A DNA stretch of 62,879 nt, the filler included, from Kipferlia bialata (Eukaryota): NCBI GenBank assembly GCA_003568945.1. It is 6 parts of 6 records of this genome, joined end to end, with 100 filler letters (N's around TTAATTAATTAA, not from the genome) between each part and the next. Parts side by side here need not be neighbours in the genome. Positions count along the whole stretch, not along the records: positions 1 to 12,787 come from BDIP01001032.1; positions 12,888 to 25,656 come from BDIP01001033.1; positions 25,757 to 38,521 come from BDIP01001034.1; positions 38,622 to 51,361 come from BDIP01001036.1; 2 more parts are not named here. One strand, written 5' to 3'. Below the pieces are notes generated by a model. The model was given only the letters and a program-made list of their open reading frames with translations. It did not search any database and was not told where the DNA came from. The translations under genes and the position numbers were made by a program. Each line of letters begins with the position of its first letter. Position 1 is the first letter of the stretch. Shown in pieces: positions 8,587 to 51,525 of this stretch.

Positions 8587-8635
<49 letters not shown>

Positions 8636-9262
8636 AGGACAAAGTGCACACTAAAGGTAAGACATCCAGCCATACAGGCGGTATGAGAGTAGTACATACC
8701 CGTGTGCAAACCCTCTGTTTGTGTCTGTGAGGGACTGGGGACAATAGTAGAGTACAGTGTATATATATACACATACTGTATACTCTATAATACTACCATT
8801 ACCCGTGTGCAAACCCTCTGTTTGTGTCTGTGAGGGACGGGGGCAGGTTCCACCGGGGGTGGGTCATCAGGAAGTCCTAGGTGTAAGGGTACATATAGAG
8901 AAAGAGATATAGATGGGTGGTACATCAGGAAGTCCTACACATTGAATGAGAGAGAGAGAGAGAGCACCATACCTGCGGCACTATTGGGTCTCTGAGCCTA
9001 GTTGATCTGACTGTGTCTCCCTCGGGGTCATAGCAGATGATACCAAAGGGGGCGGGCTCAAAGTCTGGAGGATGAGTTATGTATTCACAATATCTTAATA
9101 GCAATTGGACACATATGTTAGCATACCTTCTGGGAACATTGCCTTGAGTGCCTCGTCAGACACAATCACACTATCTCTATATCAACATACATCATACACA
9201 ATGTATGTATATATATATATATATATATAACACATACCTTCTGGGAACATTGCCTTGAGTGC
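2072..9262 (-). CDS. Large multi-exon E/R-rich coiled-coil protein (C-terminal part)
   Basis: Long minus-strand exons (e.g. 4592-5457, 6250-6868, 2226-2715) with heptad-like E/R/A-rich sequence and GT..CCCCAG introns; terminal exon RSASAGRGRQEE* with stop at 2072-2074. Confidence 0.75.
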
Positions 9263-10162
9263 NNNNNNNNNNNNNNNNNNNNNNNNNNNNNNNNNNNNNN
9301 NNNNNNNNNNNNNNNNNNNNNNNNNNNNNNNNNNNNNNNNNNNNNNNNNNNNNNNNNNNNNNNNNNNNNNNNNNNNNNNNNNNNNNNNNNNNNNNNNNNN
9401 NNNNNNNNNNNNNNNNNNNNNNNNNNNNNNNNNNNNNNNNNNNNNNNNNNNNNNNNNNNNNNNNNNNNNNNNNNNNNNNNNNNNNNNNNNNNNNNNNNNN
9501 NNNNNNNNNNNNNNNNNNNNNNNNNNNNNNNNNNNNNNNNNNNNNNNNNNNNNNNNNNNNNNNNNNNNNNNNNNNNNNNNNNNNNNNNNNNNNNNNNNNN
9601 NNNNNNNNNNNNNNNNNNNNNNNNNNNNNNNNNNNNNNNNNNNNNNNNNNNNNNNNNNNNNNNNNNNNNNNNNNNNNNNNNNNNNNNNNNNNNNNNNNNN
9701 NNNNNNNNNNNNNNNNNNNNNNNNNNNNNNNNNNNNNNNNNNNNNNNNNNNNNNNNNNNNNNNNNNNNNNNNNNNNNNNNNNNNNNNNNNNNNNNNNNNN
9801 NNNNNNNNNNNNNNNNNNNNNNNNNNNNNNNNNNNNNNNNNNNNNNNNNNNNNNNNNNNNNNNNNNNNNNNNNNNNNNNNNNNNNNNNNNNNNNNNNNNN
9901 NNNNNNNNNNNNNNNNNNNNNNNNNNNNNNNNNNNNNNNNNNNNNNNNNNNNNNNNNNNNNNNNNNNNNNNNNNNNNNNNNNNNNNNNNNNNNNNNNNNN
10001 NNNNNNNNNNNNNNNNNNNNNNNNNNNNNNNNNNNNNNNNNNNNNNNNNNNNNNNNNNNNNNNNNNNNNNNNNNNNNNNNNNNNNNNNNNNNNNNNNNNN
10101 NNNNNNNNNNNNNNNNNNNNNNNNNNNNNNNNNNNNNNNNNNNNNNNNNNNNNNNNNNNNNN
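9263..10162. other. Scaffold gap (900 N)
   Basis: Run of N without a linker. Confidence 0.99.
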
Positions 10163-10174
10163 NCATAAACACAC

Positions 10175-11113
10175 CTGAGTTGATTGAGAGCACCGAGTCG
10201 TGTAGTGATGTCTGCCATAGTTGTGTATATGACACTGGAGTAGTCACTCTGGAGACTGGCCAACACGGCAAAGGAGGAGTAGACAACACAGAAGGCCTCC
10301 ATGAACAGAGCGACCTAGAGGTTAGAAGGAGGCAGGTAGACATTACACTCTCTGTATAGTAGATATGTCTTTACTCAAGAATATAATAATAGAAAGATCA
10401 GAGAGAAACAAACGCCACACTCACCATTGGACCATGCTGTGAGCCCTTGCCCAACAGACCCAGGGCACGGTCAGACATCTGGGGGTGAAGGAAACACTTT
10501 CTGTATATACACATACCAATACTCATATGCTAACTCAAGCGTACGTATATACACATATATCCATATATCCATCCCACCTTGACCGCGATGGCACTGTGCA
10601 CGTTGGGCAGAAAGTATATTATAATGCTACTCATATACACTTGTATACATATAATACATATATATATACATGTATACATATCCGTGTATACATATTACTC
10701 ACCTTGACCGTGATGGCACTGTGCACGTTGGTCATATAGCATTCATTCTATACAACTTACTCATGTATAAATATATACATACATATATTCATCATATATA
10801 TATATATATGTATATACATATATACATCCCCACCTTGACCGTTATGGCACTGTGCACGTTGGGCAGAGAGTATATACCCTCGGAGGGCTGGGGGATGGAG
10901 ACCTCAAACACAGTCTGGGGTGAGACGCATAACCACCACAGAACATACACACTCTTACATACTATAAGTGCATTGTACCTTCTCCTCCGTGTTGATAGAT
11001 AGTGATGCCGGTCTGAGTGTGCATATGCCCCTCTCTGCCAGTGTCCACAGGATGAGGGCATGCAGGAACTGGCCCTCAGAGTCAAGGAGAGAGGCATCAA
11101 GGCCCTAGAGTGA

Positions 11114-11151
<38 letters not shown>

Positions 11152-12787
11152 GCATGCAAGAACTGGCCCTCGGAGTCTAAGAGAGAGGCATCTAGGCCCT
11201 AATGTTAGTAGTATATACATATATATTTAGATAGAGAAATACAGACATCACTATATATGTCCCATCCAAGCCCTGGAGTTAGTAATCGCAAATCATAAAT
11301 ACACAGAACATTTCACAACAATTACACGGATCGAGGGACGGTGCGCGTTCAGGTCCAACAGTTAGTCTAGTATTCACACCTTCGTGAATATATTGATATA
11401 GAGAGAGAGACAAACTCCATTTCATGTACCTGCAGCACAATCTCGCAGAACCTGGCCAGCATGCCCACAAAGAACTCGGCCCTGGGGGTGAGGGAGATAT
11501 ATAGAGTATTATATACAACAGGAATGAATAAGAAAAGACACGGTAACATACCTATCGCTACTAGTTGTATCAGGTGACACCCCTGTGCTTGTGTGCAGCA
11601 TGGCGGCACAGGCCTTGGAGGGGTCGAGGAGACCATCGTTTATGACAAGGGTGGGGACCTGGAGTCAACTAATACATTATGTATAATATATCAATATAGA
11701 GGAATAATGCAGTATGAGAGAGAGGGGTATCGCAGCGAGAAGAGGAAGACATGCCATCGTTACTCACAAGGGTGGGGACCTGGAGTATGTTGAGGAAGAG
11801 AAAGAAGAGAAAGAAGGAAGAAAGAGACGAAGAAACTATCTGTATCCTACCTGGAATGCGTTGTGGACTGGGAGCTCACTGAACACAAACACAAACTTGG
11901 GCATGACTGTGATATGGGTGGAAGACATCAGGGAGTCAAACATCTGGGAGACTAGGGTGCCCTCTCTAGTGGTAAGTCAAAAAGGGATGTAGAGAAAGAG
12001 AAACATAGAGATATTGTAGTTTGTATACACATCCTCACCTGTCGAATGTCATGTCGACCACCACCCAGATGCCCTCGTCCTTGAGGTCATCCACACCTGG
12101 GGGGTGAGGGGGGTATACACATGTACATATATGTGTGTGTGTGGAAGGTAGTATATTGAGACACCTACGTGTTGCTTGACAAATGGGGTGAGAGGGGTAT
12201 TCATGTATACAAATACATATATGTGTAAATATATGTGGACACACACCCGTGCTGTCTGGTCTATGCCTCTCTCTATGCACCAAGGGGATGGGACACATAG
12301 TGCATATATAGATATATACAAATGTGCATATATACATATATTACTATATCGATACATACCTCCGTGCTGTCTAACGTATGCCTGCACCATACTAGGGTGT
12401 GATACATACTGATACATATGTATATATCTACGTATACACCACTATGTACCTCCGTGCTGCCTGATGTATGCCTGCACCATGTTGGGGTGTGACACATAGT
12501 GCACAGAGGCCTTGGAGTAGGCAGCGGCCTGAGTGTGAGTGAAGGAGATAAATATATATATATATATGTGTGTGTGTGTACATGCATATACACTGTGTAC
12601 CTTCTCCACTAGATGGTGCGCACTGACAGGGGTGTCAGACTGCACAACAAGGGCATGCTCCTTGGACCTGGGGGGTAAGGTTACACACCATACATACATA
12701 TATATATATGAGGAGAGAGATAGAGAGAGAGAGGGGGGGGGGGGGGGGGGGGGGGTCAGACTGCACCCCAAGGGCATGCTCCTTGGT
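10175..12787 (-). CDS. Multi-exon hypothetical protein; possibly the upstream part of the 2072-9262 gene
   Basis: Phase-compatible exons: SKEHALVVQSDTPVSAHHLVEK | AAAYSKASVHYVSHPNMVQAYIRQHGG | VDDLKDEGIWVVVDMTFD | ... | GLDASLLDSEGQFLHALILWTLAERG | TVFEVSIPQPSEGIYSLPNVHSAITVK. Same strand as the gene across the gap. Confidence 0.65.
10576..10866 (-). repeat. Donor-side exon-edge echo, 3 copies
   Basis: CCAACGTGCACAGTGCCAT(A/C)(A/G)CGGTCAAG|GTG at ~10830 (exon), ~10699 and ~10576. Confidence 0.9.
12163..12510 (-). repeat. Donor-side exon-edge echo, 4 copies with graded decay
   Basis: ..CAGGCATACATCAGGCAGCACGGAG|GT at ~12450 (exon), ~12358, ~12247 and ~12163. Confidence 0.8.
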
Positions 12788-12887
12788 NNNNNNNNNNNNN
12801 NNNNNNNNNNNNNNNNNNNNNNNNNNNNNNNTTAATTAATTAANNNNNNNNNNNNNNNNNNNNNNNNNNNNNNNNNNNNNNNNNNNN
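12788..12887. other. Artificial contig-joining spacer
   Basis: 44 N + TTAATTAATTAA (stops in all six frames) + 44 N. Confidence 0.97.
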
Positions 12888-13269
12888 TTTTTGAAGTGGT
12901 CAATTCCCCCCCCCCCCCCCCCCCCACCTATTATTGCATCCCACTTCATCCACATATGTATTGCCGACACTATGATATGGGAAGCGCATACAATACCTCC
13001 AAAGGAGGAGATATACTGTGGTGACAATCAATAATACATTCTATCTGAATCTCCCCCCCCCCCCCTCCCCCCCCACAATATTTCTCAAGAAGTACTAGTA
13101 ATGCTATATTGTTACAATTCCCTGTACGTGTCTCCATCTAACCCCCCCCCAAATCGTGACAGCCTAAAGAGTATTCCCAATCACTACAGTAGCATGTACG
13201 TCTCTCAAGTTACACGTATCTATTCACTCTAAAGTAATATTCATCTCTCTCATTGCAGGTGTCTCCTCC

Positions 13270-14621
13270 ATGTCCACCGCTACCAGAGATGCCCAGTGGG
13301 GTCGGATAGGCCTAAAGACCCTGGTAGTAGCACCCTCGGCTGTAGTCAAGATATCACAGAACCAGGTGGCTACTGTGGGGGCTCTCCCCACTAGTCAGGC
13401 TGCTGTGCCTCCGTATATGCAGACACTTAAGATGACCTTAGTGATGGAGGGCCGTGCACCACGTGAGGCAGAGACTATTGTCTGTATGATCGTGACCAAG
13501 CGGAGCGATGGGTTCTTTTCCCAGGAGGTGATACCCCTACCCTTCAGTGACCGTGCCGTCTATAACGGTGTGGTCTATCACGCTGGGAAGCTCTATATGC
13601 TGCTGTGTGACCCCAAGACCGACGAGCACTACGAGCCTGACAGCATATACCTGCCATTCTCATCCAGGGGAAGTGTGGCTGTTCTCTCCCTCGACACTCA
13701 GCAGTGTACAGTCCTGCCTGCCACTGATCTACCATGCTCACTATTCACACGCTGCTCATTCATGCTGGGTGACACCTGGTACATCGCAGGTTGGATGTGT
13801 ATGTAATGACAGTATATATATACATATATATGTATACGTAGTATAGCATATATATGATGTATACACTCCTAGTATATCGCAGGTTTGGATTGGGGGCACC
13901 TTGCTTGTATTCATATATATATGTGTATATACTTGGTACATCGCAGTTACGGTTACCAGTCTCTATGCAATATGTACGAGATTACGTGCCGGTTTGACAC
14001 TGTCTCTTCTGCTACTATATGTGAATATATATATGACTTGAAATGTAAGTTGAGGTTATCGGTATTGGCACAACCCTAAAGACACTTTCTCCTATCAGTG
14101 TACCATTAACCACAGGATGGAACGCCAAGAGAGCTCCGATCCTCTTGACCTACCAGCCACTCTCCAACAGGTGGGGTAGAGGGGAGTCAGGTGTCTTTGG
14201 AAACATGACCCCAACGCTCTCCAGTACAGTGGTAGGCGATGTTGCATACCTCATGTGTGAAGATTCAGAGTTCTATCCCTATGTGGCATCCTTCACTGAG
14301 GAGAGTGGCTTTCGCTCTGTAGCGAGACTTCCTAAGACTTCTGATGCGCTACAGATGTTCTCGATCGGCAGACACCTCTTTGTGTATGATACAGACACGA
14401 CAGACGAGCCAATAGTCTTGCTGAGTTACAACACAGTGTCTGGGGAGTGGGTAGAGTACCCATCTGCTGTCAGACTCTCTGTGGGCTGTGTTGGAGAGCA
14501 CATTGGAGATGGAGTCCTGATACTGTTTACAGGTCAGAGCATCTTCTACAGGGAACCAGAGTGTCTGTACCTCACCCTGTCTCTGCCCCCTGGCGACGAC
14601 AATGTGTCTCTTGGGCTGTAA
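13270..14621 (+). CDS. Kelch-like beta-propeller protein, 2 exons (13270-13789, 14116-14621)
   Basis: Phase-1 intron joins WYIA-G-WNAK. Kelch-like segments: GVVYHAGKLYML, SFMLGDTWYIAGW, STVVGDVAYLM, FSIGRHLFVY, LSYNTVSGEW. Confidence 0.7.
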
Positions 14622-14933
14622 CCTACACCGTGTAAGTGGTAGAGTAAAACGAAGGAGTATTGGTATTTGTGGCCACTCATCAAAACGAGGAGCCAGGCGA
14701 ATAGTGTCCATTTAGTGTCTCTTTCCGGAGTATCACTCAATCGTTAGCTTAATACTTGATACATAGAATCCTGACTCATACAGTTTGAGTCATACTGCAT
14801 GATACTCTGACGTTGAGCAATCATCCCGATATGGTCTCAAGGTGAGATTCTCACCACACACTCGTATTTGAACAGTAAAATGATACACTCATCACGCAGC
14901 CACGATAACCGTCCGGGTGGTGACTAGTAGTCA

Positions 14934-15571: not shown

Positions 15572-16040
15572 AGCGTTTTCCTTGACTATCTATGTCTACA
15601 CTTAGGTCTGCGTTTTATAGAATCGTTAATCTGACGTTGGGCACTGTTCGCGGATAGTAAGAGTGTTGTGGTCCCATGTACATATCTCATTGAAGGATGC
15701 TTCGTGTCATATAAAACAGGTTCGAACAGAAACCACAACCAAAGGCAGTAGAAGTACACGTGTAGAACGGTTAGCAATGCCTGTGTGAAATTCTTCAAAG
15801 TAGACTAATCTGTGGAGCACGTTCACCGGTGCTCTTGACACAGAACTGCACGTATTCTAGAAGTGAGCCTTTGACTCCAACATTACCAAGTTCTTATCAC
15901 CTCTAGAGTGTTCCTTGCTGTTACGGGTAAGAATTTTGCATATATTTACTGTCAAAATAGTGTGTTACGACTTAAATTTCTCAATAGTCATCCATCATGG
16001 AATCCATAAAGGATGACTCATCTATGTACCAGGTGCCAAC

Positions 16041-17124: not shown

Positions 17125-17954
17125 ACAGCTGATATGCCCTCTCTACAGAAGGTTTCAGTGTTTCAAGAGCTGTTCACTGTTAAAGGTCATTGCAATTCTG
17201 TGTCTACTGTTACTCTGTATACTGTAGAGTCCCTGCCCAACCGCAGAAGTGCGGGCACCTCTTCGCACCTATTGCTGTATGGTACATCACCGGAAGAGAG
17301 CAACGCGTTCCCAGTAGCAAGTACAATGCCATTACAAGTTGTAATTTACAACCATTGCCAGTTGGGCGAATTTGTTTCTTGTCAACAGTGCAACAGTGCA
17401 GAGACGCGTGTATATTATCTAGAGTCAGTCCACCCCCGGTGATGACACTGTTTCTCTCCTCTTGGTGTAGTTACCTTCGTATATGGAGAATAGAACCATC
17501 CTTTGTAGCAAAAGACTCTTGCTTCAGTTATCACACTCACTCTGTTATCGGCTGTGCCGCTGTGATACAGGGGACTGAGTAACACTATCAGGTTGAATTG
17601 CTACTTCTCACATATAGAGTCTCTTTCGTCAACGTAAAGAAGTGTTTCGTTTGAGGGTCTCAAGTCGCCCATTATCTATCGCAGGAGGTATCTCAACAGT
17701 ATCAAAGACTTGCCCTTCGTAAGATCCCTTAATACTTCTCCTGTTTTAGACAGCATCACATGGGCGGCTATCCGTACTACCAGAGCAGCAGTGAGGACGA
17801 GGTATGTAGAGTGGTCAATGACCATGCTGCGAAAGTAACGAAACACATTGTACCTATTTGGTACTGGCAAACAGATTCATCGTCCATATGGTAAAGAGTA
17901 TTAGATATGTGAGACCAGTATATCTATTATGAATAGTAAGAGTTTCTCTCCTCA

Positions 17955-20871
17955 ATGCTTCTCAAGCTCCCCAACGCCGTGAGAGCAGACCACCCAAGGG
18001 TAGAGCGTATATACTATGCGTATTATGTGTACATGTGTGTGTGTCTCCGTGTACGTCTTACCTGTCTAGGACGAGACCCCTCTTCGAGAGCGCCAGATAC
18101 TGGCAGAGATGGATGAGGACGCTGTCTACCTCATGAATAGGTGGGACTCGCGTCTACAGTATCTAACACAATATGTGCCGTGTGCCATATGAAAGAGTAT
18201 TCCTGATGGATAGGGAAGAAGTCTTACCACTGGCTACCAGGGCCTTGCGCCAATTCCCAGAGTCCAGAGAGGTAAACATTAGACAAATCATTGATGAGTT
18301 ATGAATGTGAAGAATCATGATATACAGATGTAGGAGATATTCCGCTATAGTATGATACGGAGACACTGAATCAGGTGAGAGGAGAGGAGAGGAATCAAAG
18401 GACCTAATTACAAACTCTTCTCATTGCTGATCCAAAACCATTGTCATTTAGTCATGTACACTATTCTACATGTTTGTTAGGTATCCCTGTTATTATATAC
18501 CAACACACAATAGTGCAAATTGTACCAGAGTATAACAAACATATAGATTTGTCATATACTAATCCACCTCAGATATGTACCAGAGCGGCAGGACTTCTCA
18601 GCGATCTGTTGACAGGACGAAAGGGTAGGGGGCAAGTATCTGAAGTTGGGGAGATACGTTCTGCTCCAAACACTCTGATGTATAGGAGTATCCAACCTGG
18701 AGGACAAAAATTCGTAAACTACGTATCGTAGACTACGACTCGTAGTAACATCCCAATAATTCTTTCGCATTGCTAATATCTAGCAGACCTGCCTCAAGAG
18801 GGCCTTATCACTGCCTTTGAGCTCATCATTAGCAGCTATCAAGAGGTAGAAGCTAAGCTCTTAGAGCTTGCTACTAGCAACCTATATCCGCATAGCCAAG
18901 TATTCTCTCTGATACTGTGTGTCATATTATCATATATGTTGAATCATCTATATGGGCGCTCTCCTCTCTCATGATCTGGTCACATGGTTCTACACACTTA
19001 CCCAGTGGGGGTATAGCTCCGTAGCTATGATCATCAACACTTTTGGGGCAATTGCCGGGTACTGTAAGGGATACATGACATGCGTACTCCCAGGTAATGG
19101 CGATTTCTTGGCCATAAGTTCCTTGCATGTGTGTTAGTTCAATACTAGGCTGGGTTATGCAAACAGAGGTGATGTCAGACACGAATGTTTGTAGTGCAAT
19201 AATGCTCTTAAACAGGTCGCTGTTCCCCTGAGTGACTCACTTCAGATGTATTCTTTCTCAGGTCCCACTTGTTGGTGAATATCATACCTGCTGTGGTCAG
19301 CTTCGGCAGAGAGAGAGAGAGGGTCTCAGAGAGACAGGCATACCAGGTATGCCATACCTAGTTACTCGCTACAATAGTAATTTTCTATTAGGAAGAGAAC
19401 CTCACACATACTGCTCATCTCAGATATGTACGCTAGCGTCTGAGATCGTGCCAGTTCTTATCGAGAACCGTAAGTGTACCGTCTCTGCTATAGTGCATTC
19501 CACTGCTATATGCTGTCTCATTAGAAGTAGTATTGTCTCCGCTCTTCTAGGTTGTTGTCCTGGAAGACATTCTAGCACATTGCCATCTTCACCGACATCA
19601 ATCTGACGCGTAGAGAGAGGAGTGTGGTCTTGCCCTGCTGTGGTAAGAGTCTTCATTGACACCTTGAGAGAGTATTCTGACGAGCCACATTTGGTAGCGT
19701 GGGCACTTCGCATGTTGGATGACTACCAGTCGGGAGAAGGTATCTTGAACAGGGGCTCTAACTCTAACTTCAAGATTACTTCGTGCTGGAAGAAGAATGA
19801 CACATATGTCTAGCCTGTTTCTTATCATCAGGATTGGATATGTTCCATAGCCTTCTGGGGATTGACACTGTAGTGTCGGCACTTAACAACAGCGGAGACA
19901 CTGATACGGTGCACACTCCCCTAATCGCCCTACATGCTCTCGGTGTCCTGAGGCAGGTTGCCGAAAACTCAGGTACTTAGCACTATGCTACGTTAGCATA
20001 CTACGGCCTGTGGCCTCTTGAGTATGGGGAAATCACACAAAGATCCCTATTGCATCAATATAGAGTGCATGACACCAGACAGCGACATTGCAATCATGCA
20101 ATCTCTAGGTGTGTGTGACACCACCTTACACTACCTGTGCCCAAGTGAAACCTGGCCTTCTAGGGTTCAGTACGCTGTTGCAGAGGAGAGCTGTCGTCTC
20201 TTGATAGTTCTGGCGAGAGGTGTGAAGCGATAGAAGCAATTCATTGAGAGACGTTTTCAGTAAGAAATATGTCTTCTCCACTTGTTTCTTTACATTTGTG
20301 AAGACTACATACACATCATAATGGACAATGCACTCACTATTCAGACTTCACATGCAGAGAGGAACTGTGCACCCCTGAGTCAGTAAATGTCCTGAGTAGC
20401 CAGTTAGTCGAGGTATGTATATGAAATGTTGTGTCGCCCATGACAAACCACGGGAATACTTGTGAGTGTCTCAATGTGTTACGTATCTAAACACATCCCT
20501 CTACACTATTAGGATAACATAGTATAACTAATGATACATCGATGCTAGCTATGACGTCAGGAGAGAATCCAGATGTGTAATACAAGCGACAGCTACTATG
20601 CGATCCCGCACTACCTTCTCCCTGTGCAGACAATGGTCAAAGCCCTGCTTGTCAATGGTGAGTGTGAGAAGTTCAAACTTAGAAGTCACTTCACAGTTGA
20701 GTTGATTGCTAGTGCGATATAGTCATCCTTCTCACTATAGCCAGGTCCCGGTTCCGAGCAGATCCTGAGAATCCTAGTTGCGTAGCTGTTGTGAATTCCC
20801 TAGAAGATGTACTGGAGAGGTTAGAGATGCTGCTTGGATCCTACGGACAGGAGCAGGAGGATTCTGGATAA
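17955..20871 (+). CDS. Multi-exon alpha-helical repeat (ARM/HEAT-like) protein, paralog A; start uncertain
   Basis: Exons DLPQEGLITAFELIISSYQE, LLVNIIPAVVSFG, GVWSCPAVVRVFIDTLREYSDEPHLVAWALRMLDDY, FHSLLGIDTVVSAL, IAIMQSLGVCDTTLHYLCP; stop at 20869-20871. One expected exon near 20510 has stops in all frames. Confidence 0.6.
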
Positions 20872-21058
20872 ATATGTAGTTTCTGTCATAACATGTTGTG
20901 TTTGCAGGTTAAAGTCAATGCCATCATGTGACATCTTGAGTCTCCTTTGCCGTATGTAGTATTACATACACTACTGCTCAATGTATTCTATGTATCTTGC
21001 AGCACGGCACCCGTCTCTGTTCAGACAAGAAATCAACCTTTTAGTGATACTCCTCCTT

Positions 21059-24000
21059 TCAATACCGTCTGTGGTTCTTTGCTTCTGCCTTATGGCTTCT
21101 CAGCATTTCTGTTCTTCTCCTAAAATCCTCAAACGCCTTAACCAATGCGTGGTGACCCATGTTATGTGGTTCTCTTTGCATGTGGGATTCTGCTGGGGTC
21201 AGAGACATGTGTCAGCAGTAAATATTGATAACAAATGATATGAAGGAGTGTGAGCCTGACGATGACAGACGAACCATTCACCAGAATGGCGTCAACAATC
21301 GCTCCGACGTAAGGTAGCGAAACGTTGCCCGCCCATGATAACTTAGAGCCCCGATACCACTCACTGATAGACTTCTGTGATTCAGCTGTGTATATCACGA
21401 GATGCAGTGAAAACCAGTAATTCACTAATACAAGTTCCAACGGTATAGGACTGAAAACGTATGCCATACGTCGTATGGTACGTGTAGCATGTGCGTTGAT
21501 TACATATCAATATACCTGCTTCTCCTGCCAAGACATGTCGGCACATAGAATATCCTCCTAAATATGAGGTTACACAAGAGAGTCCAAAAAGAATCTGGAT
21601 TCCAGATACTCACTTCTAAGCTATGGAAAAGAGTAAAATGAGAATACTTTTCGTTGAACCATGTATGTGTATTCCAATTAGGGAGGCATACCCTAACAAT
21701 CAGGTCACTAAGGGCAGCGGCAGTATCCAGATTGCACAAGGCCTCTCTGCAACAATAGTCTGGGTGTGAGGAAACGTCTATCTGACTATCAAGTTGTGAG
21801 TTTTGAGGAATAAATCTGTTTGCGGTTGTCATTGAAATGCATCACTACTATATCATGTGAATGATGCAGAGTTGCCTCCACCTGTTGAGTAAATCTAATA
21901 AATCCAACTTTCTGTGTCTAAAGAGGTTAGTAAGTAACGAAAGAACGAATTCAGTTGACACCGTCAGTACCTTTTACCATTGAAATCAGCAGGCCGAAAC
22001 ACTGCATTGACAATTCATTTCTAATGCGATCTGGAAACGACTCTTCGGGACACAGATAGAAGATGGCTTCTTCACACACTCCTAGAGCGCCAAGGATAGC
22101 AAGGCTACTTTCTGGCAAGTGAGGTTTTGTATGATACAATACTCCCTATTCTTGTATCTGACTTACTCACCTCAATACGCAGTCGCACTAGTCATAGTTT
22201 CCAGCAGTATTCATCCATATACCATGTTCATAGTGTGAACTTCATGCACTAACAAGAGTATATATGGGTATTGTCGTTTGTGTAGAGAAGTTCTTGGTGA
22301 TTAGTTCTACTCTGCTTCCAATACTAGATGCCAAGATTACTTAACTGAAAAGGTAACTATGAGAGAACAGATTATATCAGACATACATACCGGAGGTGGA
22401 AGCAACTCTTGCGATGGCCTTTATAGCACCAAGCGCGATAAGAGGGGTGTACACAGTACTGTTGTGTAATACTGAGGCGACAGTATCGATACCCAGAAGG
22501 CTGTGGAATTGGTATATTCCTGGAGGTCAGTCAAGAGTAGTCTCAAACACTTCCGATGATACCATTCATAAATTCCTTATCAGAGTCAAAATTTTCTCTG
22601 TTTCTAGTGCGAAAGCTACTTACTGACAGCAATGGTAAACTTTACGCAATACGGAAGGTATCCCCATACATTGTATAGGGATACCTTCCTCAATTAGGAT
22701 GTATGGTATACATGAGGGTTTCTCTTTAGTTGTATCGGCTACATACGTACTCTTCAGTCTAGTTTGTCAATGACAAGAGGTATGTTACTAGCGTTTCTCA
22801 CCTGGTCCAGTGGAGTAATCGTCCAGTAACCCAAGTGTCCACTGTACAACGTGAGGCAGGTCAGCATATTCTCTCAGTGTGTCAATAACGACAGAGACGA
22901 TGTCAACTCTGGTCCAAATGGCGTCATCTGTGTGAGTACAATGTAAATACACTGACTTCATACATAATACTATACTATATAACCTGATATCAAACACCGA
23001 CTGTATTAGACACCGACCTACTCTTGCTATAAATAACCTCAGACATACACGAAAATGGATAAGAGAGACTCTTTTAGAGCCAACGAGAACTTACTTCTCG
23101 CAGGCTATATATATCAATGAAACACTGAACCCTTTTCCTCCCTTGAGGGATACATATTGTTACATTTTGAGAATACAACGTACGCTGGGCGTTAAGACCA
23201 TAAACAAGGCCGGCAGCACGCTTTCTGATCTGGTTGTTAGAAAATGAACTATTTTAACAAATGCTACAATAACTTTGTAATTGCATTGGAATACAATTGA
23301 AGGACAATTGAGTTCACCTTCTTTGCATCGTCTTCAGAGATGTCGGTTGCTTCATCGCCAAACTTCACCACGGCGGAAATGATGTTAACCAGGATCTGTG
23401 GACTCAGGTAGACCGTGTATGTGGTGAGTGAGAGGACAAATACAATATTTGAAATATTAGTACCTTAGGACGAGTTTCTCTTCAAGACAGCGTAGCAGTA
23501 AGCAACACAACAACATGGTGTAACCGTGGAATAATGCATGCATGTATATATATAAGAGATATTCGAAGTTTCAACCTGAAACAGGATCCCGCAAGAATAT
23601 GTGAAATTAGAAGTGAAGAGAATGAATTAGTTAAGTATTCTGGAGGACAGAAACATTTAGAAAGAATTAGTTCATTGTGTCAGCTGTGTATCAGGCTGTT
23701 ACCGGTAAGCTAGCAGCATGTTACCTGACGGATGCCGGAGTACATTGCTACAGTATCCACTCAGTGCCCCAAGGGTGTAGGATGTCATCTCAAGATCGTC
23801 GAATCCCCACTGATGAGTTAGTGGTGATTGTTGGCGTCAAGGCTTCCTCTAATCGCATATCTGTGTACGCAAATATATATTAAAGCAGCACCATACCTCC
23901 TGGTAGCACTGTACCACAAGCTCACACGCAATGCGAATACCTTCTCGGGGCAGATTGACTGATGGTTTCAGGGTGGATAAGACATGATGCATCAAGAGGT

Positions 24001-25092
24001 AGTATTGTACTTAGTTACATGAATGTATAATCATGCCATGCATAATGTATGTTCAACATGCCGATATGTTGTTAAAGCAGTGCCTAAGTCATAGAATTCG
24101 GAGAGGACAGTGTGATCTATGATGACTCATCATAGCAAGTCTCAACTCCAACTTAGAGTCTCTAAGTTACTATGTAATCGAATACACTATAGTGTATATT
24201 TGTACGCATCATATTCTCCAACATATATTTACGTAGCTTGATTAATAGAATTCCTACCACCTCGGTATCACTTTACCCAGGATCATACGCCATATAGGAC
24301 CTATAGGCTCTTTAGGCTATGCATTGTACACTGAATACAGTATACACTATAATAGCATGTGATACTAACCTGCGTGACTCCACTCTGTCACAGAGCACAC
24401 GAGGGATGCAGCCCTGGAACATATCTGCTGTGACATATACAGAGACTCTATGTCATAGAGAGCTTGACGGAGAAGACAACACATTGCTTGTTGAAGTCAA
24501 CTATGTCTCACAATCAGTATATCTACAATCCCTAATAGACTAGTCTACACATGTACCTCTCTAGACTGTGGGAATGTACGTAGAGCTCTATTTGCAAGCT
24601 GGAGCCTCTCCTCACCACCGTAGGGGATGTTGCGTGTATCAAGCTGTCCCAGCATCTCTCTCTCTCTCTCTCTTGGCCTGTGAGCATACCAGTATCGTCC
24701 TGAGTTAGAGTCCTGGTTCCTGGTAGAATAATAGTTCAGATATGTTGGCTGTATTCAAGGGGGTCCTCATCATACTATCAACGTTCCCACATCTTCACCT
24801 CTACCTCTCTATACATCAATAGAACATTCATTGAACATACCCAATCAAATTGATAATTATTTACGGATTGAATCAATGTGCACTGCATGTACAAGGTGTT
24901 GCATTCTTCTTTAGAACTTTCCAGAAGTGTACGATGTACATGCACTTGAGTTCCCCCTTCGTTGCAAATGAACAGTGCTAGTGAAAGGATCGATTGAGTG
25001 TGGAAAGAACATAGACTCAACATCGCTCTATAATAGAGTCTCTCACTTACCTCATCTTCACTGCTGCTCTTGTCGTAGAATGGATGGCCCAT
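21059..25092 (-). CDS. Multi-exon alpha-helical repeat (ARM/HEAT-like) protein, paralog B
   Basis: Exons NLPREGIRIACELVVQCYQE, ILVNIISAVVKFG, AIWTRVDIVSVVIDTLREYADLPHVVQWTLGLLDDY, FHSLLGIDTVASVL, LAILGALGVCEEAIFYLCP; ends AKNHRRY* at 21059. Confidence 0.65.
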
Positions 25093-25656
25093 TGGTTACC
25101 AATGATTGGTATACTCCTTTAGGAGAGAGTGTGAGTGGAAGTTGACGGAGCGAGGTTGGGGTGAAGGTGAAACCCTCTCAAAAATACCCTCAGGAAGGGT
25201 AATGATACCCTCACATATACTGTTACAGTAATATACTGTAGTACATGTCGTGTTTTGGTAGTAACAACTGTGTGTTATCGTTCATACAGTTGTTGTCGGA
25301 AAAGGGTTTAATTGATATCATTGATTCGGTGTGGAACTCCTGGCCTTCTCTTTGACGACTCCATATAAATACCATATGCACACCGTAGAGGTGCCTGGTC
25401 TAAATGATGTGGATCATGAGTGTGTGGCAGTGTACTCAGGTATATACTATATATTTGAAGATATTCATATATATATATATGTATGAAATTGTCACTCTCT
25501 TTTCTTTTTCTCTCTCTCTTTGTGTGACTGCGTATTCGGGAATTAGTATTCAGGTATATATGTATTCTGGAGTGGGCGTGTGTAAAAATGATCCAACCTC
25601 TCTCTCTCTCTCTCTCTCTGCCCCCCCCCCCCCCCCCCCCCCCCTTCTTCCCTTTC

Positions 25657-38353: not shown

Positions 38354-38521
38354 ATGATTGTGCGAGTCCTGGACAGTGCAGGTAACACTGTATGTACCGT
38401 AGGTGTAGCGGTATCAAGTGAGAGTGCCCCCCCAGGCTGTGTGTCTGTGACTGACCCTGTTGGTGCCCTGATACCTCTGGTGCACAAGGCCAGACAGGCA
38501 GTGCAGGCAGAGGGGGAGGGC
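38354..38521 (+). CDS. 5' fragment of a hypothetical protein, truncated by the contig end
   Basis: Open frame MIVRVLDSAG...QAEGEG with exon-like composition. Confidence 0.45.
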
Positions 38522-38621: not shown

Positions 38622-38690
38622 AGCCCGTGCCCGGGGGGGGGGGAGGGGGGGGGGGGGGGGGGATATAGATGGTATATATATGGGGCGTAC

Positions 38691-39699
38691 CGTGAGGGCA
38701 TGCGTAGTGAGCACCCAGGAAGTCACAAGAGAACACGGTCTCGAGGGAGGGGACGTGGGTGAACCTGATGGTAAGGGAGAGAGGAATGATAGGGTGATAG
38801 AGCCGTGTACACATACACATACATTGTGTCCCCCCAGTGGAGCCATGGGGCCAGGTGGAAGTGGAAGTCGGTGCCGTTGACAGACAGCACATCACCCTTC
38901 TTGACCTGGGGTAAGCAGAAGCATACTTATATATAGAATCTACATACATAGAGAGATAGTGCACTCCTTCACTTGGAAGAGAGACAGAGACGTGTGTACC
39001 TGGTGCCTCTTGAATGTGTTGTCGTTGGAGATCTCCTTGAGGAAGTTGATGGCAGCCACTGTGCCGTGGATGGTGGCACCGGTGGCCTGGACAGTGAGGA
39101 TAGATGATACTACATATGTATATAGATGTGTATATATACGTGTATACATACTCATGATTGCGCTATACTCACCAGGGCCAGCTGCACAGCGGTGGAGGAG
39201 TGGTCGGGCTCGGTGTGGTTCAGAATGATGTGGGTGAGCTTCATGCCGGTGCCACCTGACAGTGAGACAGCAGAGACAAAGAGTGACATACTGTATACAC
39301 CCACCCATGACGTCCTCTATCCTGCCCAGGAGCTGGTCTGTGTGCATGGTCTTGCCCTTCACAGTCTCAATCAGCACAGCCTGGGGTGAGGACTATACAC
39401 ATAGAGACAGAGAGACAGAGACAGAGGGAGACACAGTCATGATATGCACACCCACCTCATCCCCGCACTTGACGATGTAGCTGTTGTAGGTGGTGCCAAA
39501 CTCAGTGTACATGACAATGTCAAAGACACGCAGGTTGGGGTCACTGTGGGGTGAGTGGGGGGGGGGGGGTAACAATTGGCGATACTGACAAATTATCAAT
39601 ACCATCACCGTCAGTCCATACACTCCCACCGTACCTAGCTCCGACCCATGACACTCTGTCGGACAGGGCAATGCTCTCGAGGGGTACGCTGTCGGCCAT
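38691..39699 (-). CDS. Flavodiiron protein (A-type flavoprotein, FprA-like O2/NO reductase), metallo-beta-lactamase domain; 3' truncated
   Basis: Spliced: SWVGA..DPNLRVFDIVMYTEFGTTYNSYIV, LIETVK, IILNHTEPDHS (H-x-E-x-D-H), APWLHWGDTMWF, VFSCDFLGAHY. Confidence 0.92.
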
Positions 39700-40058
39700 C
39701 TCTGTTGTATTCTATGGTCCTAAGAAAGATGTTAGAGAGTACTCCCACCCTTAAGCACTCTCACCCTCGGCCACCAATTGTGGCCACGGGATCCAACCAT
39801 TTCGTTGGAGCATTTCAGCCGTTTCAGAAAAGTGAACACTTTGAGCCGGAGAGACAGCATAAGACTGGGGTTATCCACGTCCACTACTATGTGTGTTGGT
39901 GTATGACGAAGGTATTACTAGTGTGGCCTTCTAGTAACCGGTGTCTGCATTGATATAGGTGGACACTGGAAATAGAGACAGTAGCGACAAGTGACGTTTC
40001 AATCATCATGCATGTCAATGTAGATCGGGACGTGAGGCCTTCTCTCTTCGTGTACAGT

Positions 40059-43000
40059 ATGATAACACATGCAGTAGAACCTACAGTGTGGGCATATGCC
40101 GGTATCACAGCGTGAAGAAGTGGTCAGTGGAGTGTGTGTGCCTGTCCTCCATACACCCCTGACCAGTCACAATGTATGCGTCGACATCCATAGTCTCCCC
40201 CATCACGCTCTGTCTGTTTGTACTGGCCACCCTGGTGTCTCTGTGCCTACCCTACAGACATGTGTCCATCCTGTGTGCAGGGTGTCTGTACCTGGACTCC
40301 ACCTTCTGCCTCCTCTCTCTCTCCGTGATAGTGGGTGAGATCCTTGTCAAGGCCGAGCCATCCAGCACGAGAGAGGACCAGTGGAGGGTGGACATGGGGG
40401 CAGACAGGGAGAAGGCAGGGGAGGGGAAGGGGGCAGAGGAGGGGGAGGGGGAGGCGGAGTCTGGGTGCTGTCAGGACTCCGATGCGGCCTGTGTGTCTGA
40501 GTCCTCTGGGTCAGTGGATGAGGGCACTGCAGATGCATGTCCCCCCCCTGCCCCCCCAGAGCGTGTGCCACACACAGACATCACAACACCCCTCAGACAG
40601 GTGGGGGCACTCACTGCTCTTGTATATAGCCTTGCAATACTATCTGAGTATATGTAAAAGTATCACCACCACAACCATATCTCATCTCTACTTGTGCTCT
40701 CCCTCCAACTCCCCCACCTCCCATGTCCAGATGATCATTGGCTGTGTTCAGAGAGCTGTCTCTCTCTCTCTCCCTCCTTTCCTATATTCCCCCCTGTCTC
40801 CGTCTCTATATTTGTATTTGTATCAACGCTATGTTTACACCTCTCAGTTGAGTGTCTCTCCCTCTATTCCCGTATATGGCACATTGTCTCTCGCCCACCC
40901 TCAGGTCCGCTTTGTGCTGATAGGCTCTATCCTCAATGCCCTTGGTGCCATCCTCTATGTATTAGCCCCATCCATCCCAGCTCTCTCCCTGCCCACCCCC
41001 CCACCCCCCCTCTCCCCCATGCTGTGGACTGACGGGTGTGTACCTGAGGCATACCAATGGGTGCCACGCATGGTCAGAGGGGTGTACAGGTGGGGTGGAT
41101 GGGTGGTGGAACGCATCATACACATGGATATACATACATGAGGATGGATACACACCTGACCCCTAGATCCCTCCTCACTCTGGGCACTCTACTGATAGGT
41201 GCTGGGGGTGTACTGACCCATGCCAGGCTGTCAAGGGCAGATTATGAGCAGGGTGCGTTACTAATAGTAGTGAATACTGTCATTCTGTATTTATGTGTAT
41301 GTAGAGCTCTTTTTCTCTTTCCGTTCATAGCATCTCCCCTCACACCAAGTGCAGCTGACCAAGTCTCTACATACTTAGGTGATGTATCTGCTTTTAGTAT
41401 ACATACCTCTCCATGACCCCCAGTGCAGCTGACGAAGTGTGCCATGCAGGCCAGGGGTCTGGACTACCTCATGTGCAGCAGGGTCACATCGAGGTGGGGG
41501 CAGGGGGTATATATTAGTGAGAATGACAATTGAGATATTTTGCCCATTTAGGCCTCACCACCCAGGCCGTGTGCCCATGCCCACTCCTTCATATCGGTCA
41601 TGGGGTCTGTGGCCAGTGGCTACATCCTCTCTCTCTCTCTCTCCCCCTCTGGGCTGGGGGTGCTACCTGACCCTGACCCATACCCACATGTCACAGACAG
41701 TGCAGAGGGTACGGGGTGTATGGGTATAGTCTAGTATACTCTTCGGATCAGACATACCTTGGGGTGAGAACATGTGTAGTACCCACCAATCCACACCGCC
41801 CACCCCCAGTGCTTCCCATGCTCCCCCTCTCCTATGTCGCTGTACTGGCCCCTCTATGGGTGTGTGTGTCACTGGTGTGTGTGGGCATACCAAGTGCAAC
41901 GGACCCAGTCCCAGCAGGTAAGGACATATGTCTATGTACCAGTGTGTAGAAGAATAGCTGCATTTTTGACCAACACCAGTATACACGTACCCAGCTGAAG
42001 ATACCTACATATATACCATACGAGGGTAAATATGTGTATGTGATAATATCACATGATATGTACTCTATTTATCAGTTTATCACCGTCCCTAACCCAGGGT
42101 TCTTTGGACTTGTGTTGGGTCTAGTGGACTATCAGAGGCAGGTACGTTGGTGCATGTGTGAAGGGACCATCCTGGTTTACATTATTATCCTTTCATAGCT
42201 TGGTGCTGGATCTGGTGGAGTATAGGAGACGACTGTCTATGACACCTATACATACACCTCACCCCCAGGTTGAGAGCACCCGTGAGCTGGGAGAGGAAGA
42301 GAGAGAGGAAGCCAGAAGGAAGGGAGAGAGAACCAAGGGAGGGGATGGTGATACTAGCACCAATGCTGCGCCCACCCGGCCCACTCCCATACCCACTGTG
42401 CAGCAGGAGAAGGAGACAGAGGAGCAGGAGGTACAGGGGGTATATCTATGTATATGGTTGAGGTATGAATATGCACATGGTAATCAATTGTCGTGGATAC
42501 ATATGTGTGGATATACATATAAGGGTACAAATCCACCTAACCCCTAGGCCGAGAGGCTGCAGGAGAGACACGATGTTGAACAGCTAGCACACTGGCTACT
42601 GTCACCCAGGCCCATATCCAACAGGAGGTGAGGGTCATGAATACATATATGCCAGTATCTATTATCCTATTTTGTATCCAGTCCCCCCTCACCCCAGGTT
42701 CACCCCCCTCAGGGCCGAGGGCCCAGCCGCAGACACCAGCACACCCTCGGTCACAGGGCAGTTCCCGCTGGCTAGGTGTGGTCAGTCTTCTATACAGTAT
42801 TCACTGCGAGCTGTGTGTCAATGTATCCCTTGTGTGATTGTGCTATAACCATATACCACTTCCAGTGGAAGTCTTCCACTGACCCTGTAGGCCAAGGGTC
42901 ATGTCCATGCTCTGTGCCTATAGCTCAAACAGACCACTCGCAGACAGAAGTACGTATCCACACCACATATTGTTTGGCATGACTACCTTCCTCACACCAT

Positions 43001-46000
43001 ACCCCTATATTATCCCCCACTGTGCCTCACTGCCAGTGCGTGACTCCCTTACTGCTGCCTCCCTGGGGTCACCCACCTCGACCCACCTGAGGTACAACTG
43101 CATTGTTCCTGAGTGTACTTGGATTGATGTGCTGATATGTAGAGTAGCGTGTGAAGTTGTTCTTCTACCTAACACATTCCCACATGTGATGTTGGTGAAT
43201 ACGGCCACCCCATGTAACCCTTGCATACCCCATCTCTCTCTCCATCCCCCCTGACCCCAGGGTTGCTCTTGTGTCCTTAGCACTCTGGGTATACCCCTAC
43301 CTTCCTGCTGTGCTACAGAGAAGGGTGGCAGAGAGGGTCGTGGGGGAGGGGGCCATGCAGAAGGTGAGAGTCTATAGTATATGCTGGATACATAACAATG
43401 ACGTGGAAGTGTGGATACGTGTGTACTCTAGTGCTGTATATGATGTGTATGTTGTACATACCCTACCCCCCCAGGTCCGTCTGTGGATGCGGGACAAGAG
43501 TGCCCTGCCCCAGGTCATGAGGACGGGTGTCACGGCTCCCATCCTGGCAGTCCCCATCACAGGTGGGGGGGGGGGGAGAGTGCATATGTATATGGGTGTG
43601 TATATGTATGGGTGTGATGTGGTTTCCATTCTTAAGTACAATACCTATTAATTGTGGTGGTAGATGTCACTGGATATCGTGTAGTAATCCCACCCCCAGG
43701 CCAGTTCTGCATCCACAACGGGGTGGGTCCCCTCATGCTGTGCCTCAGGTGGGGACTCACTGTTCATGTACTAGAATGCTTCTGTGGATATTGTCAGAAC
43801 ACAGTGGTTACTACATAAATCTGCATATATGTATGTATATATATTTAGCAGAGACCATTGTATACTCACACCCAGAGAGATCCTGGAGATTGACTGTCTC
43901 AAGGCCCATCACGACGCAGCCAGACTGGTATGTGAAGATAGTTTACTATTCTCGTAATACCAATGGTCCTACTGGCCCTGTTCCACCTTGTCATGGGACA
44001 TGTATGGTTCAGGTCTATCCACTTTGTCATGCATTACCTATATATATAAATTGGTATTAGGCACTACAACTCTTCACATATACCCCAATATCCCACCCCC
44101 AGGCCATGTTCCATCTGGTGTCAGGGCAGATACTAGCCAACAAGAGACAGACCTCATTCCCAGTGTACCCCAGGGACATAGGAGACTCGCAGGTGGGGCG
44201 CAGTATCGTGTAGAGTTCCAGCACTGAGTAGTCTACTGAGTGACTAACCCTTCAGTGGATCCCCCTCTCTGTCACGGCCAAGAGTGGCGAGCAGTACACC
44301 CCCTCCAAGCAGCTGATAGAGGACTGGAGCCACAGAGTGCCCCCCCCTCCCAGGGTGTTCCCAGTCTGGCCTCCCCTAGGTAGGGCGTCGGTGGCTGTGT
44401 ATCTGGTCTATATCGTTTCACACCTTGCTTAATACCCAGGTACCCCCCCTTGCTCCGTTCTGGCCAGAGCGTTCCAGACCATCTTTGTGCAGGTATCAAA
44501 TACACGAGCAATTGCTGCCTATATACTGATATCGTTCATATGTGTTGTCTTACCTTTATATTGTATTTCTGCCTCACCTGTCAGATTCTGCCCGATGGAG
44601 ATGGCCCTAGCTATGAGTACACAACGGCACAGTGGTTCAGACTGAGGTACGGGGTGGGGGTATACACGGTCAAACCAGGAGGATGTAGCTACCTTCTCTG
44701 CTTCTGACCCCAGGGGCCAGGAGGTTGACCCAGAGGGTGGGTGGGACAAGTGGGTGGGGACACTACTGCCAGACAGTAGGTGGGGGTGTATGTGTGTATA
44801 TATATGAATATGTGTATATAACATACTGGAACTACTGCCTGAGAGTAGGTGGGGGGTTGGAGTGTGTGGTGTAATTTGCCATATGAATGCAGACATGTAT
44901 CTCACAATCCTGTGTGGGATACTTCCATATACCTATCTGCAGGTTCTTGATAACCCCCCCACCCCCAGGCACCATCTGTTCGTGACCTCCCTGGCCCTTA
45001 TGCGACAGGACCCCAGACTAGTGAAAGGGGTGGTGTCGGAGAGTGCGGTGCTCGAGATGAGCCACAGGTATAGCATCTTCAGTATGGGTGACAGTTCATC
45101 TGTTATATTCAGTTCCACTGAGCTGTTATCTCATTTCTGAATTGTTCATGAAGTACTAGTCTCTCACCCTCTAGCGGTGGCCATGTGATCCCTGTTGGCT
45201 ACACCTGGTGGGTGGAGCAGAGGTACCCGTCAGGCAGGGCCAAGATAGTCAGGGGGTGCGAGACATTCTACAAGACACAGAAGCTGGCTAGGTGCGACAG
45301 ATACGAGGAGTAAACATCCGTAATACCATATATGTCAGACGTCCCTTCTTATGTCAGTGTTTGCATGAGAGGGGGCAGAGTACATGTGGTTATTTATATG
45401 AAATGTCCTACCTACCTCTTCCTACCTTCCCCTCTCACCTCAGGCTGATGAGGAGAGAGAGAAGGGTGCAGCGGAAGGGCAGGGAGGCCAAGCAGGGTAA
45501 GGGGGTAGACGTTGAATATTGGATTGAAGTGTCTTCAGATGCATCGCGTAAGTATGAGTATCATACCCCACCCCACCCCTCTGACCCAGTTGCTACCGAC
45601 TCCTCGGATGTCAGGGATGCCCATGGCAGGAAGGGGGTGCTGGAGTCCCTGACCGATGGCAGTGACGGGTCATCCCTCTCCCTGGGTCACTCCTCCTTTG
45701 ACCACTCCCTGTCCTTCTCATTCGACTCATTGATACAGAAGCCAGGTACGGGCAAGAGTGGCAATATACCTTCTCTCTTTGTGATATATATATCCATGGT
45801 GTGTGTTCCAGCAGTCTCTCACCCCAGGCCTCCAGGGTGTGTCCCTTAGGGAGATAGTGAGAGCACAGGGAAAGGACAAGGTATCAACCAGTTGTATATG
45901 TGTAATGTAGTAGATACTCCTAACCCCTAGGAGAAGGGTCGCAAGGGAACACCTGCTAGGGAGAGACAAGGGAAGAAGGCAGAAGATGAGGGGGAGGAGG

Positions 46001-50314: not shown

Positions 50315-50356
<42 letters not shown>

Positions 50357-51461: not shown

Positions 51462-51525
51462 CCCTCTCTTTCTCTCCCCCCCCCCCCCCCCCCCCCCCCC
51501 CCGAATTCATATTCTCTCCCTACAG

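What the first reader, a model, noticed from the sequence alone, without database searches (positions are those of the whole stretch)
8698..44856. Window-wide splice-site-anchored 'exon-edge echoes' inside introns
Seen: about 20 introns in at least 6 unrelated genes on 4 contigs hold 15-50-nt copies of the neighbouring exon edge together with its splice site (e.g. 8698, 9122, 10576, 11151, 11752, 12163, 12752, 13872, 25912, 27156, 27645, 28296, 28612, 29143, 30446, 30845, 31098, 32276, 32703, 35981, 37216, 37526, 41346, 44831). The polarity is consistent: acceptor+exon-start copies lie upstream of the exon, and exon-end+donor copies lie downstream. Copies are separated by 50-100-nt intron-like spacers that are far more diverged than the exonic part, giving a repeat-spacer look. 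Inference: a recurrent process rewrites exon/intron junctions and stacks other versions in the intron, which could drive intron growth or gain. I do not know of a description of this, but I cannot search the literature.
Basis: partly seen in the sequence, partly recalled or inferred. Interest (0 to 1): 0.9.

Follow-up and report, generated by a model that had tools for sequence, protein, structure and literature searches.

The report
Stacked old splice junctions inside introns
In this protist about one intron in six holds spliced-out copies of the neighbouring exon edge with its splice site, and their pattern of differences suggests they are likely pieces of once-working versions of the same gene stacked there by recombination.

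Summary
The DNA is Kipferlia bialata. 25 of 159 modelled introns hold 42 copies of the adjacent exon edge (0.3% by chance), always in the stated polarity, spaced 58-139 bases apart; they make up 20% of intron DNA. Contigs from public reads span them at ordinary depth, so they are not assembler stacking. The main RNA skips them in all 6 echo introns that could be checked. They are not plain decaying duplicates: exon parts differ from the working exon mostly at silent sites (dN/dS 0.26), identity collapses just past the GT/AG, and the echo splice motifs differ at 43-54% of positions yet still fit the consensus. Each echo therefore likely worked as a real junction in a diverged allele or paralog. 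Best model (55%): a ~100-base duplication across a junction, then out-of-register recombination at exon homology between diverged versions. No intron gain was seen. Single junction-spanning repeats are known (human F7 intron 7, a potato gene), and this scan noted echoes in one sea-urchin gene; this frequency and the once-functional signature were not found in my searches. The source of the versions is unresolved.

The parts
3631..3660 (-). donor echo, one copy, decayed (intron 3562-3715)
8630..8740 (-). intron 8569-8802 holds a donor echo (8700-8740, 40 of 41 identical) and an acceptor echo (8630-8674, AG lost)
8915..8934 (-). acceptor echo (intron 8877-8972)
9127..9151 (-). donor echo, 25 of 25 identical to the copy that abuts the scaffold gap 9263-10163; that copy may itself be an echo
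10578..10742 (-). two donor echoes (10703-10742, 10578-10619) in intron 10479-10833
11150..11198 (-). acceptor echo, 16 codons, 5 base differences, same peptide as the working exon 10979-11104
11754..11779 (-). acceptor echo (intron 11659-11850)
12162..12411 (-). donor echoes 12360-12411 and 12245-12268 (with a stop codon), plus a third, sub-threshold copy near 12163, in intron 12097-12449
12750..12787 (-). probable acceptor echo of exon 12601-12667 at the contig end beside a poly-G run; uncertain, not counted
13865..13946 (+). two short donor echoes in intron 13790-14115
25757..29570 (-). LBP/BPI-family gene (PF01273, 367 aa, runs off the contig), 6 of 14 introns with echo arrays; has several close paralogs
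25911..26033 (-). two acceptor echoes in intron 25824-26085; RNA joint skips both; one DNA contig spans all
27155..27192 (-). acceptor echo, 35 identical bases, flank unalignable; RNA joint 27079>27277 skips it
27645..28097 (-). five acceptor echoes in intron 27582-28157 (two of 44-45, three of 27-28 bases); they carry the exon-start version of paralog transcripts, not that of the working exon; main RNA skips them
28291..28308 (-). acceptor echo (intron 28231-28477); a second, sub-threshold copy near 28366
28612..28702 (-). two acceptor echoes in intron 28527-28862; RNA joint skips both
29143..29283 (-). two acceptor echoes in intron 29067-29350, same breakpoint; the most alike flank in the window (58 identities, 12 mismatches, 5 gaps)
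29958..38015 (+). 1,059-codon gene, weak XPG_I_2 match below the curated cut-off (E 0.01); 6 of 31 introns with echo arrays
30445..30863 (+). intron 30393-30939: donor echoes 30445-30484 and 30691-30727, acceptor echo 30847-30863, and the gap 30512-30656, which one contig bridges at about 4.4 times the neighbouring depth (likely further near-identical units)
31093..31122 (+). donor echo, 29 of 30 identical, flank unalignable
32281..32483 (+). three acceptor echoes in intron 32144-32544; exon part 0 of 23 differences, intron part 13 of 52 (nearest copy)
32703..32916 (+). three donor echoes in intron 32635-33016, differing mainly at third codon positions
35977..36002 (+). donor echo; RNA contig length fits skipping
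37215..37251 (+). donor echo, 37 of 37 identical, intron part 13 of 56 different; RNA contig length fits skipping
37520..37626 (+). sub-threshold donor echo (near 37526) and acceptor echo (near 37617) in intron 37415-37675; not counted; RNA contig length fits skipping
41350..41364 (+). acceptor echo (intron 41253-41423)
44831..44848 (+). donor echo (intron 44780-44968)

Best explanation
The echoes are spliced-out units of about 100 bases (exon edge, splice site, part of an intron) that likely served as working junctions in diverged alleles or gene copies and were likely stacked into the intron by out-of-register recombination. Steps: (1) shown: the units exist in DNA, only in the polarity that leaves the protein intact, and the main RNA skips them. 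(2) Inferred: a first unit arises by a ~100-base duplication across a junction, either a plain tandem duplication or repair that copies from a homolog and is finished by polymerase-theta end joining. (3) Inferred: between diverged versions of a gene only exon sequence is near-identical, so the 15-52-base echo pairs with the other version's working exon edge; exchange there adds, replaces or removes units, keeps the old breakpoint, and leaves one version's junction buried beside the other's. (4) Shown: buried copies then decay (2 stop codons, 5 of 42 lost GT/AG, echo-to-echo differences look neutral). Use of an echo site would always give a stop or frameshift. Whether the incoming piece becomes the echo or the working copy is not resolved.
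For: Identity is 0.68-0.95 on the exon side, 0.86-1.00 at the GT/AG, and falls to about 0.3 within seven bases of the donor. Where the spacer aligns, the exon part has 0 of 37, 0 of 23 and 0 of 33 differences against 13 of 56, 13 of 52 and 12 of 70 in the intron part (Fisher P 0.0007, 0.005, 0.007; 3 clearest of 6 hand-picked cases). Flank score 0.27 against 0.71 expected if flanks had diverged only twice as fast as replacement sites. Nearest echo against working exon: dS 0.26, dN 0.07; silent share 0.49 (0.60 in trimmed cores) against 0.36-0.42 simulated for a plain duplication, and 0.55-0.63 for two functional copies. Echo splice motifs differ from the working site at 45 of 84 donor and 61 of 143 acceptor positions, yet score 1.67 and 3.73 (working 2.59 and 4.85; random changes -1.41 and -2.25; P<0.0005); cryptic GT/AG score -1.97 and -8.15; this holds without the paralog-rich gene, in the 29958-38015 gene alone and in single-echo arrays. 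Neighbouring copies share their length (mean difference 3.9 against 10.9, P 0.0004, 15 pairs). Two paralog transcripts carry the echo version of the exon start at 27582, and another genomic copy has that array with a different spacer and fewer units. A paper lists Spo11, polymerase theta and five Rad52 entries for this species, reports no Rad51A in fornicates and no classical end joining in metamonads, and the species is reported diploid.
Against: If the versions are alleles, silent diversity near 0.26 and intron differences of 17-25% or more exceed the record of about 0.2. No second strain was found, so allelic diversity is untested. The silent excess is not significant for full segments at a transition bias of 4 (P 0.107), in single-echo arrays alone (P 0.26 and 0.105) or in changes private to the nearest echo (6 silent, 7 replacement). 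Only 8 of 27 flanks are detectably homologous. Part of the motif difference comes from one-base shifts in C runs. Exchange within 15-50 bases of homology is short for homologous recombination (own knowledge). Near-identical units likely hide in gaps, so visible arrays are biased towards diverged ones.
Confidence: 0.55

Rival explanations
1. Plain ~100-base tandem duplications, with the exon part kept alike by gene conversion between echo and working exon on the same chromosome while the spacers drift.
For: Explains identical exon parts beside diverged spacers. In the 32257-32565 block duplication two dead echoes differ at only 1 of 23 bases, so some homogenisation probably occurs. A likely near-identical array hides in the gap at 30512.
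Against: Predicts dN/dS of 0.5 or more (observed 0.26). Predicts splice motifs either identical or randomly decayed, not different yet consensus-fitting.
Confidence: 0.2
2. Plain tandem duplications in a genome whose AT-rich intron DNA mutates several times faster than exon-derived DNA, wherever it lies.
For: Introns are rich in AT, CT and GA runs; slippage makes flanks unalignable quickly.
Against: Non-repetitive spacers differ by substitutions. Fast random change would erode the motif. It does not explain the silent excess.
Confidence: 0.1
3. Echo splice sites are still used, in stepwise removal of long introns or in unproductive splicing, and are conserved for that reason.
For: 37 of 42 keep GT/AG and score near real sites. 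The stretch between the far working site and the last echo has a normal intron length (median 100). The spliceosome is reduced (87 of 174 proteins). Joints at repeats were dropped by the tool, so minor use is unseen.
Against: No enrichment of regenerated sites: 4 of 22 acceptor echoes start with GT (background 19%), 13 of 20 donor echoes end in AG (background 70%). All 41 tested uses give a stop or frameshift. It does not explain silent-site bias.
Confidence: 0.1
4. Assembly artefact: two haplotypes of a diploid written one after the other.
For: Diverged introns with silent exon differences are what two haplotypes look like; the species is reported diploid; the DNA run may be the source of the window, so it is not independent.
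Against: Contigs built separately from public reads cross the echo-to-spacer joints with 0 differences at depth 477-508, like echo-free neighbours (463-482): 25782-26125, 27771-28231, 30682-31335, 31394-32375, 37225-38497 (5 of the 8 DNA pieces shown). Arrays hold up to six versions. Echoes begin in mid-exon.
Confidence: 0.03

Closest known systems
Human F7 intron 7 37-bp VNTR (PMC1557585; abstract and outline read)
   Same: Tandem units whose first element spans the exon-intron border; downstream donor pseudo-sites stay silent and the most upstream site is used.
   Different: One locus, pseudo-sites identical in sequence. Here 16% of introns, acceptors as well as donors, units near 100 bases, and units that are diverged versions.
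Tandem duplication across an intron-exon boundary in a potato RdRp gene (PMC4974935; passages) and internal gene duplication (Gao and Lynch 2009; not held, known only from citations)
   Same: A duplicate made of the 3' part of an intron and the 5' part of the next exon.
   Different: In potato a cryptic donor was activated and a new intron arose; here the copy is buried, no new intron was found, and the event recurs up to five times in one intron.
Tandem exon arrays made by staggered homologous recombination (Dscam; Lee et al. seen only as a reference title, PMC3236188 passages)
   Same: Arrays of exon-derived units separated by 100-200-base diverged introns; unequal exchange is the proposed engine.
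   Different: Dscam units are whole exons, alternatively spliced and selected to differ; echoes are half exons, skipped, and encode nearly the same peptide.
One-sided invasion repair (named in PMC9299229; passages)
   Same: One end copies a homologous template; completion by end joining (own knowledge) would give one homologous and one non-homologous joint, as a first echo has.
   Different: Described for engineered templates in plants; no natural genome-wide footprint at exon edges is known to me.

Membership tests
Junction-spanning VNTR (F7 IVS7 type) | First unit spans the exon-intron border | tested here: met
   27 arrays anchored at working splice sites
Junction-spanning VNTR (F7 IVS7 type) | Pseudo splice sites silent in the main RNA | tested here: met
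   6 of 25 echo introns checkable: 3 by listed joints, 1 by record positions, 2 by exact length; minor use not visible
Junction-spanning VNTR (F7 IVS7 type) | Units near-identical along their whole length | tested here: not met
   Flanks 17-25% different or unalignable; best pair scores 35 of 50. One likely exception inside the gap at 30512
Junction-spanning VNTR (F7 IVS7 type) | Copy number varies between chromosomes of a population | tested here: inconclusive
   Another genomic copy has fewer units; no second strain found
Intron gain by tandem duplication (Rogers model, potato case) | The duplication creates a new intron | tested here: not met
   Top score 7, equal to the null 99th percentile, among 159 introns; main RNA uses the outer sites
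Tandem duplicated, mutually exclusive exons (Dscam type) | Whole exons with both splice sites | tested here: not met
   Far exon edges 2 of 210, exon middles 1 of 105
Tandem duplicated, mutually exclusive exons (Dscam type) | Arrays grow by staggered homologous recombination | tested here: inconclusive
   Shared breakpoints fit it; no exchange was observed directly
Recursive splicing | AG directly followed by a regenerated GT | tested here: not met
   4 of 22 against 19%; 13 of 20 against 70%
Recursive splicing | Splicing intermediates at the inner sites | not testable with these tools
   Only assembled contigs were served

The most novel reading that the evidence does not exclude
K. bialata introns are a stacked fossil record of former alleles: in a lineage without Rad51A and classical end joining, recombination between homologs 20-30% diverged at neutral sites registers only on exon islands and captures whole working splice junctions into about one intron in six. 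One genome would then record hidden outcrossing at or above the highest diversity known in eukaryotes, and about a fifth of its intron DNA would have arisen this way.
Probability: 0.3. Interest if true: 0.88.

Novelty: new variant of a known kind. Interest (0 to 1): 0.7.

Why it matters
It shows a route of intron growth that accounts for 20% of intron DNA in this window, in the one intron-rich fornicate of the comparison read here. It supplies thousands of natural tests of splice-site choice if the rate holds for the reported 124,912 introns: good acceptors at a normal distance are passed over for the last one, which first-come scanning does not explain. If the versions are alleles, sex and diversity of an anaerobic protist can be read from one genome. 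Hidden near-identical units may also explain assembly gaps and false micro-exons in gene prediction (my predictor called several echoes as exons).

Tried and rejected
No whole genome was held, so nothing is genome-wide. No related locus in metagenome contigs for two proteins. Protein search did not return the paralogs seen in reads. Breakpoints at microsatellites: 11 of 42 junction windows against 27% of echo-intron and 47% of spacer windows; rejected. Alternation of only two versions within arrays: no consistent pattern in 10 arrays. Regenerated AG/GT sites and Rogers-type intron gain: rejected. cDNA-templated origin: echoes keep GT/AG and intron-like flanks and do not run into the next exon. 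Remnants of whole duplicated exons: would also leave the opposite polarity, seen 0 of 107 and 2 of 103. RNA contigs give no cover over several echo stretches; this alone is not used as evidence. The RNA label of run X2 is the tool's guess; its contigs join across GT-AG introns. Contigs drop rare variants, so absence of a second allele or paralog of the 29958-38015 gene is not shown. Literature: 10 searches found no description of this pattern; Gao and Lynch 2009 and Lee et al. were not held, and most subscription papers are not searched. The species' genome paper has 0 hits for 'duplicat' and 'tandem' in its main text; its supplements were not read.
Full report
Setting. The window joins six contigs with N spacers; two scaffold gaps (9263-10163, 30512-30656) both fall at echo arrays. 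A long exon is 100% identical to a Kipferlia bialata protein. No whole genome was held, so all counts are for this window. A self-trained gene finder and hand curation gave 171 exons and 159 introns; one model equals the database protein P0002. About 15.8 kb was not modelled.

The observation. Adjacent exon edges match their intron in 28 of 318 tests, against 2 of 210 far edges, 1 of 105 exon middles, 0 of 318 reverse complements and 0.19% of 7,808 non-adjacent tests. Units repeat every 58-139 bases (median 96), with 15-52 exon bases and a 38-109-base spacer; echo introns have median 247 bases against 88.5, and 18 of 23 introns of 190 or more carry echoes. The units fill 4,214 of 20,684 intron bases, 145 of them N, and are unevenly spread among genes (P 0.008). 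An annotation-blind scan found no intergenic or intron-only repeat of this period among 29. Polarity needs no special targeting: only a buried upstream acceptor copy or a buried downstream donor copy leaves the protein intact (inference).

Real DNA, skipped in RNA. Contigs of run X1 cross echoes with no differences at depth 477-508, like echo-free neighbours (5 of 8 pieces shown; 460 records were laid and most pieces were not shown). X1 may be the window's source, so this tests the assembly, not the sample. One contig bridges the gap at 30512 at depth 2,143, which suggests about four near-identical hidden units (depth is a rough guide). Run X2 joins 25822>26085, 27079>27277 and 28525>28862, skipping the echoes; record positions show the five echoes of 27582-28157 skipped; exon sums of 228, 154, 398 and 88 bases fit one 3,360-base record exactly and imply skipping at 35977 and 37215. 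That is 6 of 25 echo introns. Joints at repeats were dropped by the tool, so rare use is unseen. All 41 tested uses of an echo site give a stop or frameshift.

Not plain decaying duplicates. First, identity is high up to and including the GT/AG and then collapses; flank similarity (0.27) is nearer to unrelated introns (0.19) than to the 0.71 expected from the replacement-site divergence. Second, nearest echo against working exon gives dS 0.26 and dN 0.07. The silent share, 0.49 for whole segments and 0.60 for trimmed cores, exceeds the 0.36-0.42 simulated for a neutral echo beside a fully constrained exon (P 0.01 or less at transition bias 1-2; 0.107 for whole segments at bias 4; observed transitions 34, transversions 40) and, in cores, fits two functional copies. 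The excess is weaker in subsets. Third, echo splice motifs differ from the working site at 54% (donor) and 43% (acceptor) of the non-dinucleotide positions yet score near real sites and far above random change or cryptic sites; this holds in all four subsets tried. Motifs were not used to find the echoes. Fourth, echoes are dead now: echo-to-echo differences look neutral (silent share 0.30-0.35), the second copy has 11 private replacement changes and 2 silent ones, 2 copies hold stops and 5 of 42 lost GT/AG.

How it likely works. Echo and working junction look like two versions that both worked while they diverged, after which one was buried. Neighbouring copies share their length (P 0.0004), so one breakpoint is re-used, as out-of-register exchange between an echo and a working exon edge would do. 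In the LBP/BPI gene, which has at least three close copies at similar depth, two paralog transcripts carry the echo version of the exon start at 27582, and one genomic copy has the array with another spacer and fewer units. For the 29958-38015 gene no second copy was listed at 92% likeness, which points to alleles or lost copies but is not proof, since contigs drop variants. The first unit may be a plain tandem duplication or one-sided copying from a homolog finished by end joining (for the term; the rest is inference). The repair kit fits: no Ku or DNA-PKcs in metamonads, no Rad51A but two Dmc1 in fornicates (PMC8516963, section 8 read); Spo11, polymerase theta, Msh2 and five Rad52 entries for K. 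bialata (its Supplementary Data 2, rows seen); reported diploid (PMC5874029, passage). The main difficulty is the diversity needed, above the record of about 0.2 (PMC9305300, passage); hybridisation of diverged lineages or lost paralogs would ease it.

Comparison. The nearest described cases are single loci: the F7 intron 7 minisatellite with silent identical donors (PMC1557585, abstract) and a potato duplication across an intron-exon boundary that made a new intron (PMC4974935, passages; review PMC3443670, passages). Dscam arrays are whole, used exons (PMC3236188, passages). The echoes fail the defining tests for intron gain, mutually exclusive exons and recursive splicing and differ from a VNTR in that units are diverged versions. 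Ten literature searches found no description of the pattern (listed under Tried and rejected); Gao and Lynch 2009 could not be read and may cover part of it. This scan noted echoes in one sea-urchin gene (unchecked note), which led me to the F7 paper.

Verdict. A real, frequent and odd feature; a new variant of junction-spanning duplication with a once-functional signature. Mechanism 55% likely as stated; source of the versions open. Interest 0.7.

Noticed in passing
window 20-45, 12733-12755, 12906-12925, 25621-25644, 38645-38662, 51317-51361, 51476-51502, 59561-59609, 59724-59759: 10 of 13 runs of 15 or more G or C lie within about 55 bases of a contig end (an 11th near the window's end); contigs seem to break at G tracts.
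   Followed up: no
window 25757-29570: The LBP/BPI-family gene has at least three close copies at similar DNA depth and paralog transcripts at depth 10, 18 and 67 against 500-1,000 for this copy; the protein search returned only this one.
   Followed up: partly
window 17600-25150: Two facing, AT-richer, poorly modelled genes with longer introns and weaker acceptors than the rest of the window; the blind scan found no echo there.
   Followed up: no
window 38691-39699: Gene start that reads like a flavodiiron (A-type flavoprotein) N-terminus; label recalled, not confirmed by Pfam on two single exons. 0 of 6 introns have echoes.
   Followed up: partly
window 13790-14115: The modelled donor reads GTTGG, a poor fit to the consensus (score 0.7); not checked in RNA.
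   Followed up: no
window 12162-12244: The spacer before the third echo ends in an acceptor-like motif that lacks only its last G; one more base would have made the echo a new small exon.
   Followed up: partly
window, all acceptors: The branch-point-like motif sits directly against the 3' splice site, as described for diplomonad introns (PMC6679479, passages).
   Followed up: no
window 49065-49573 and 50162-50407: Gene model uncertain: a 509-base stretch that may be a gene boundary, and a frame break beside an internal poly-C run (50316-50356) that may be a mis-join; the second was left out of the intron count.
   Followed up: no
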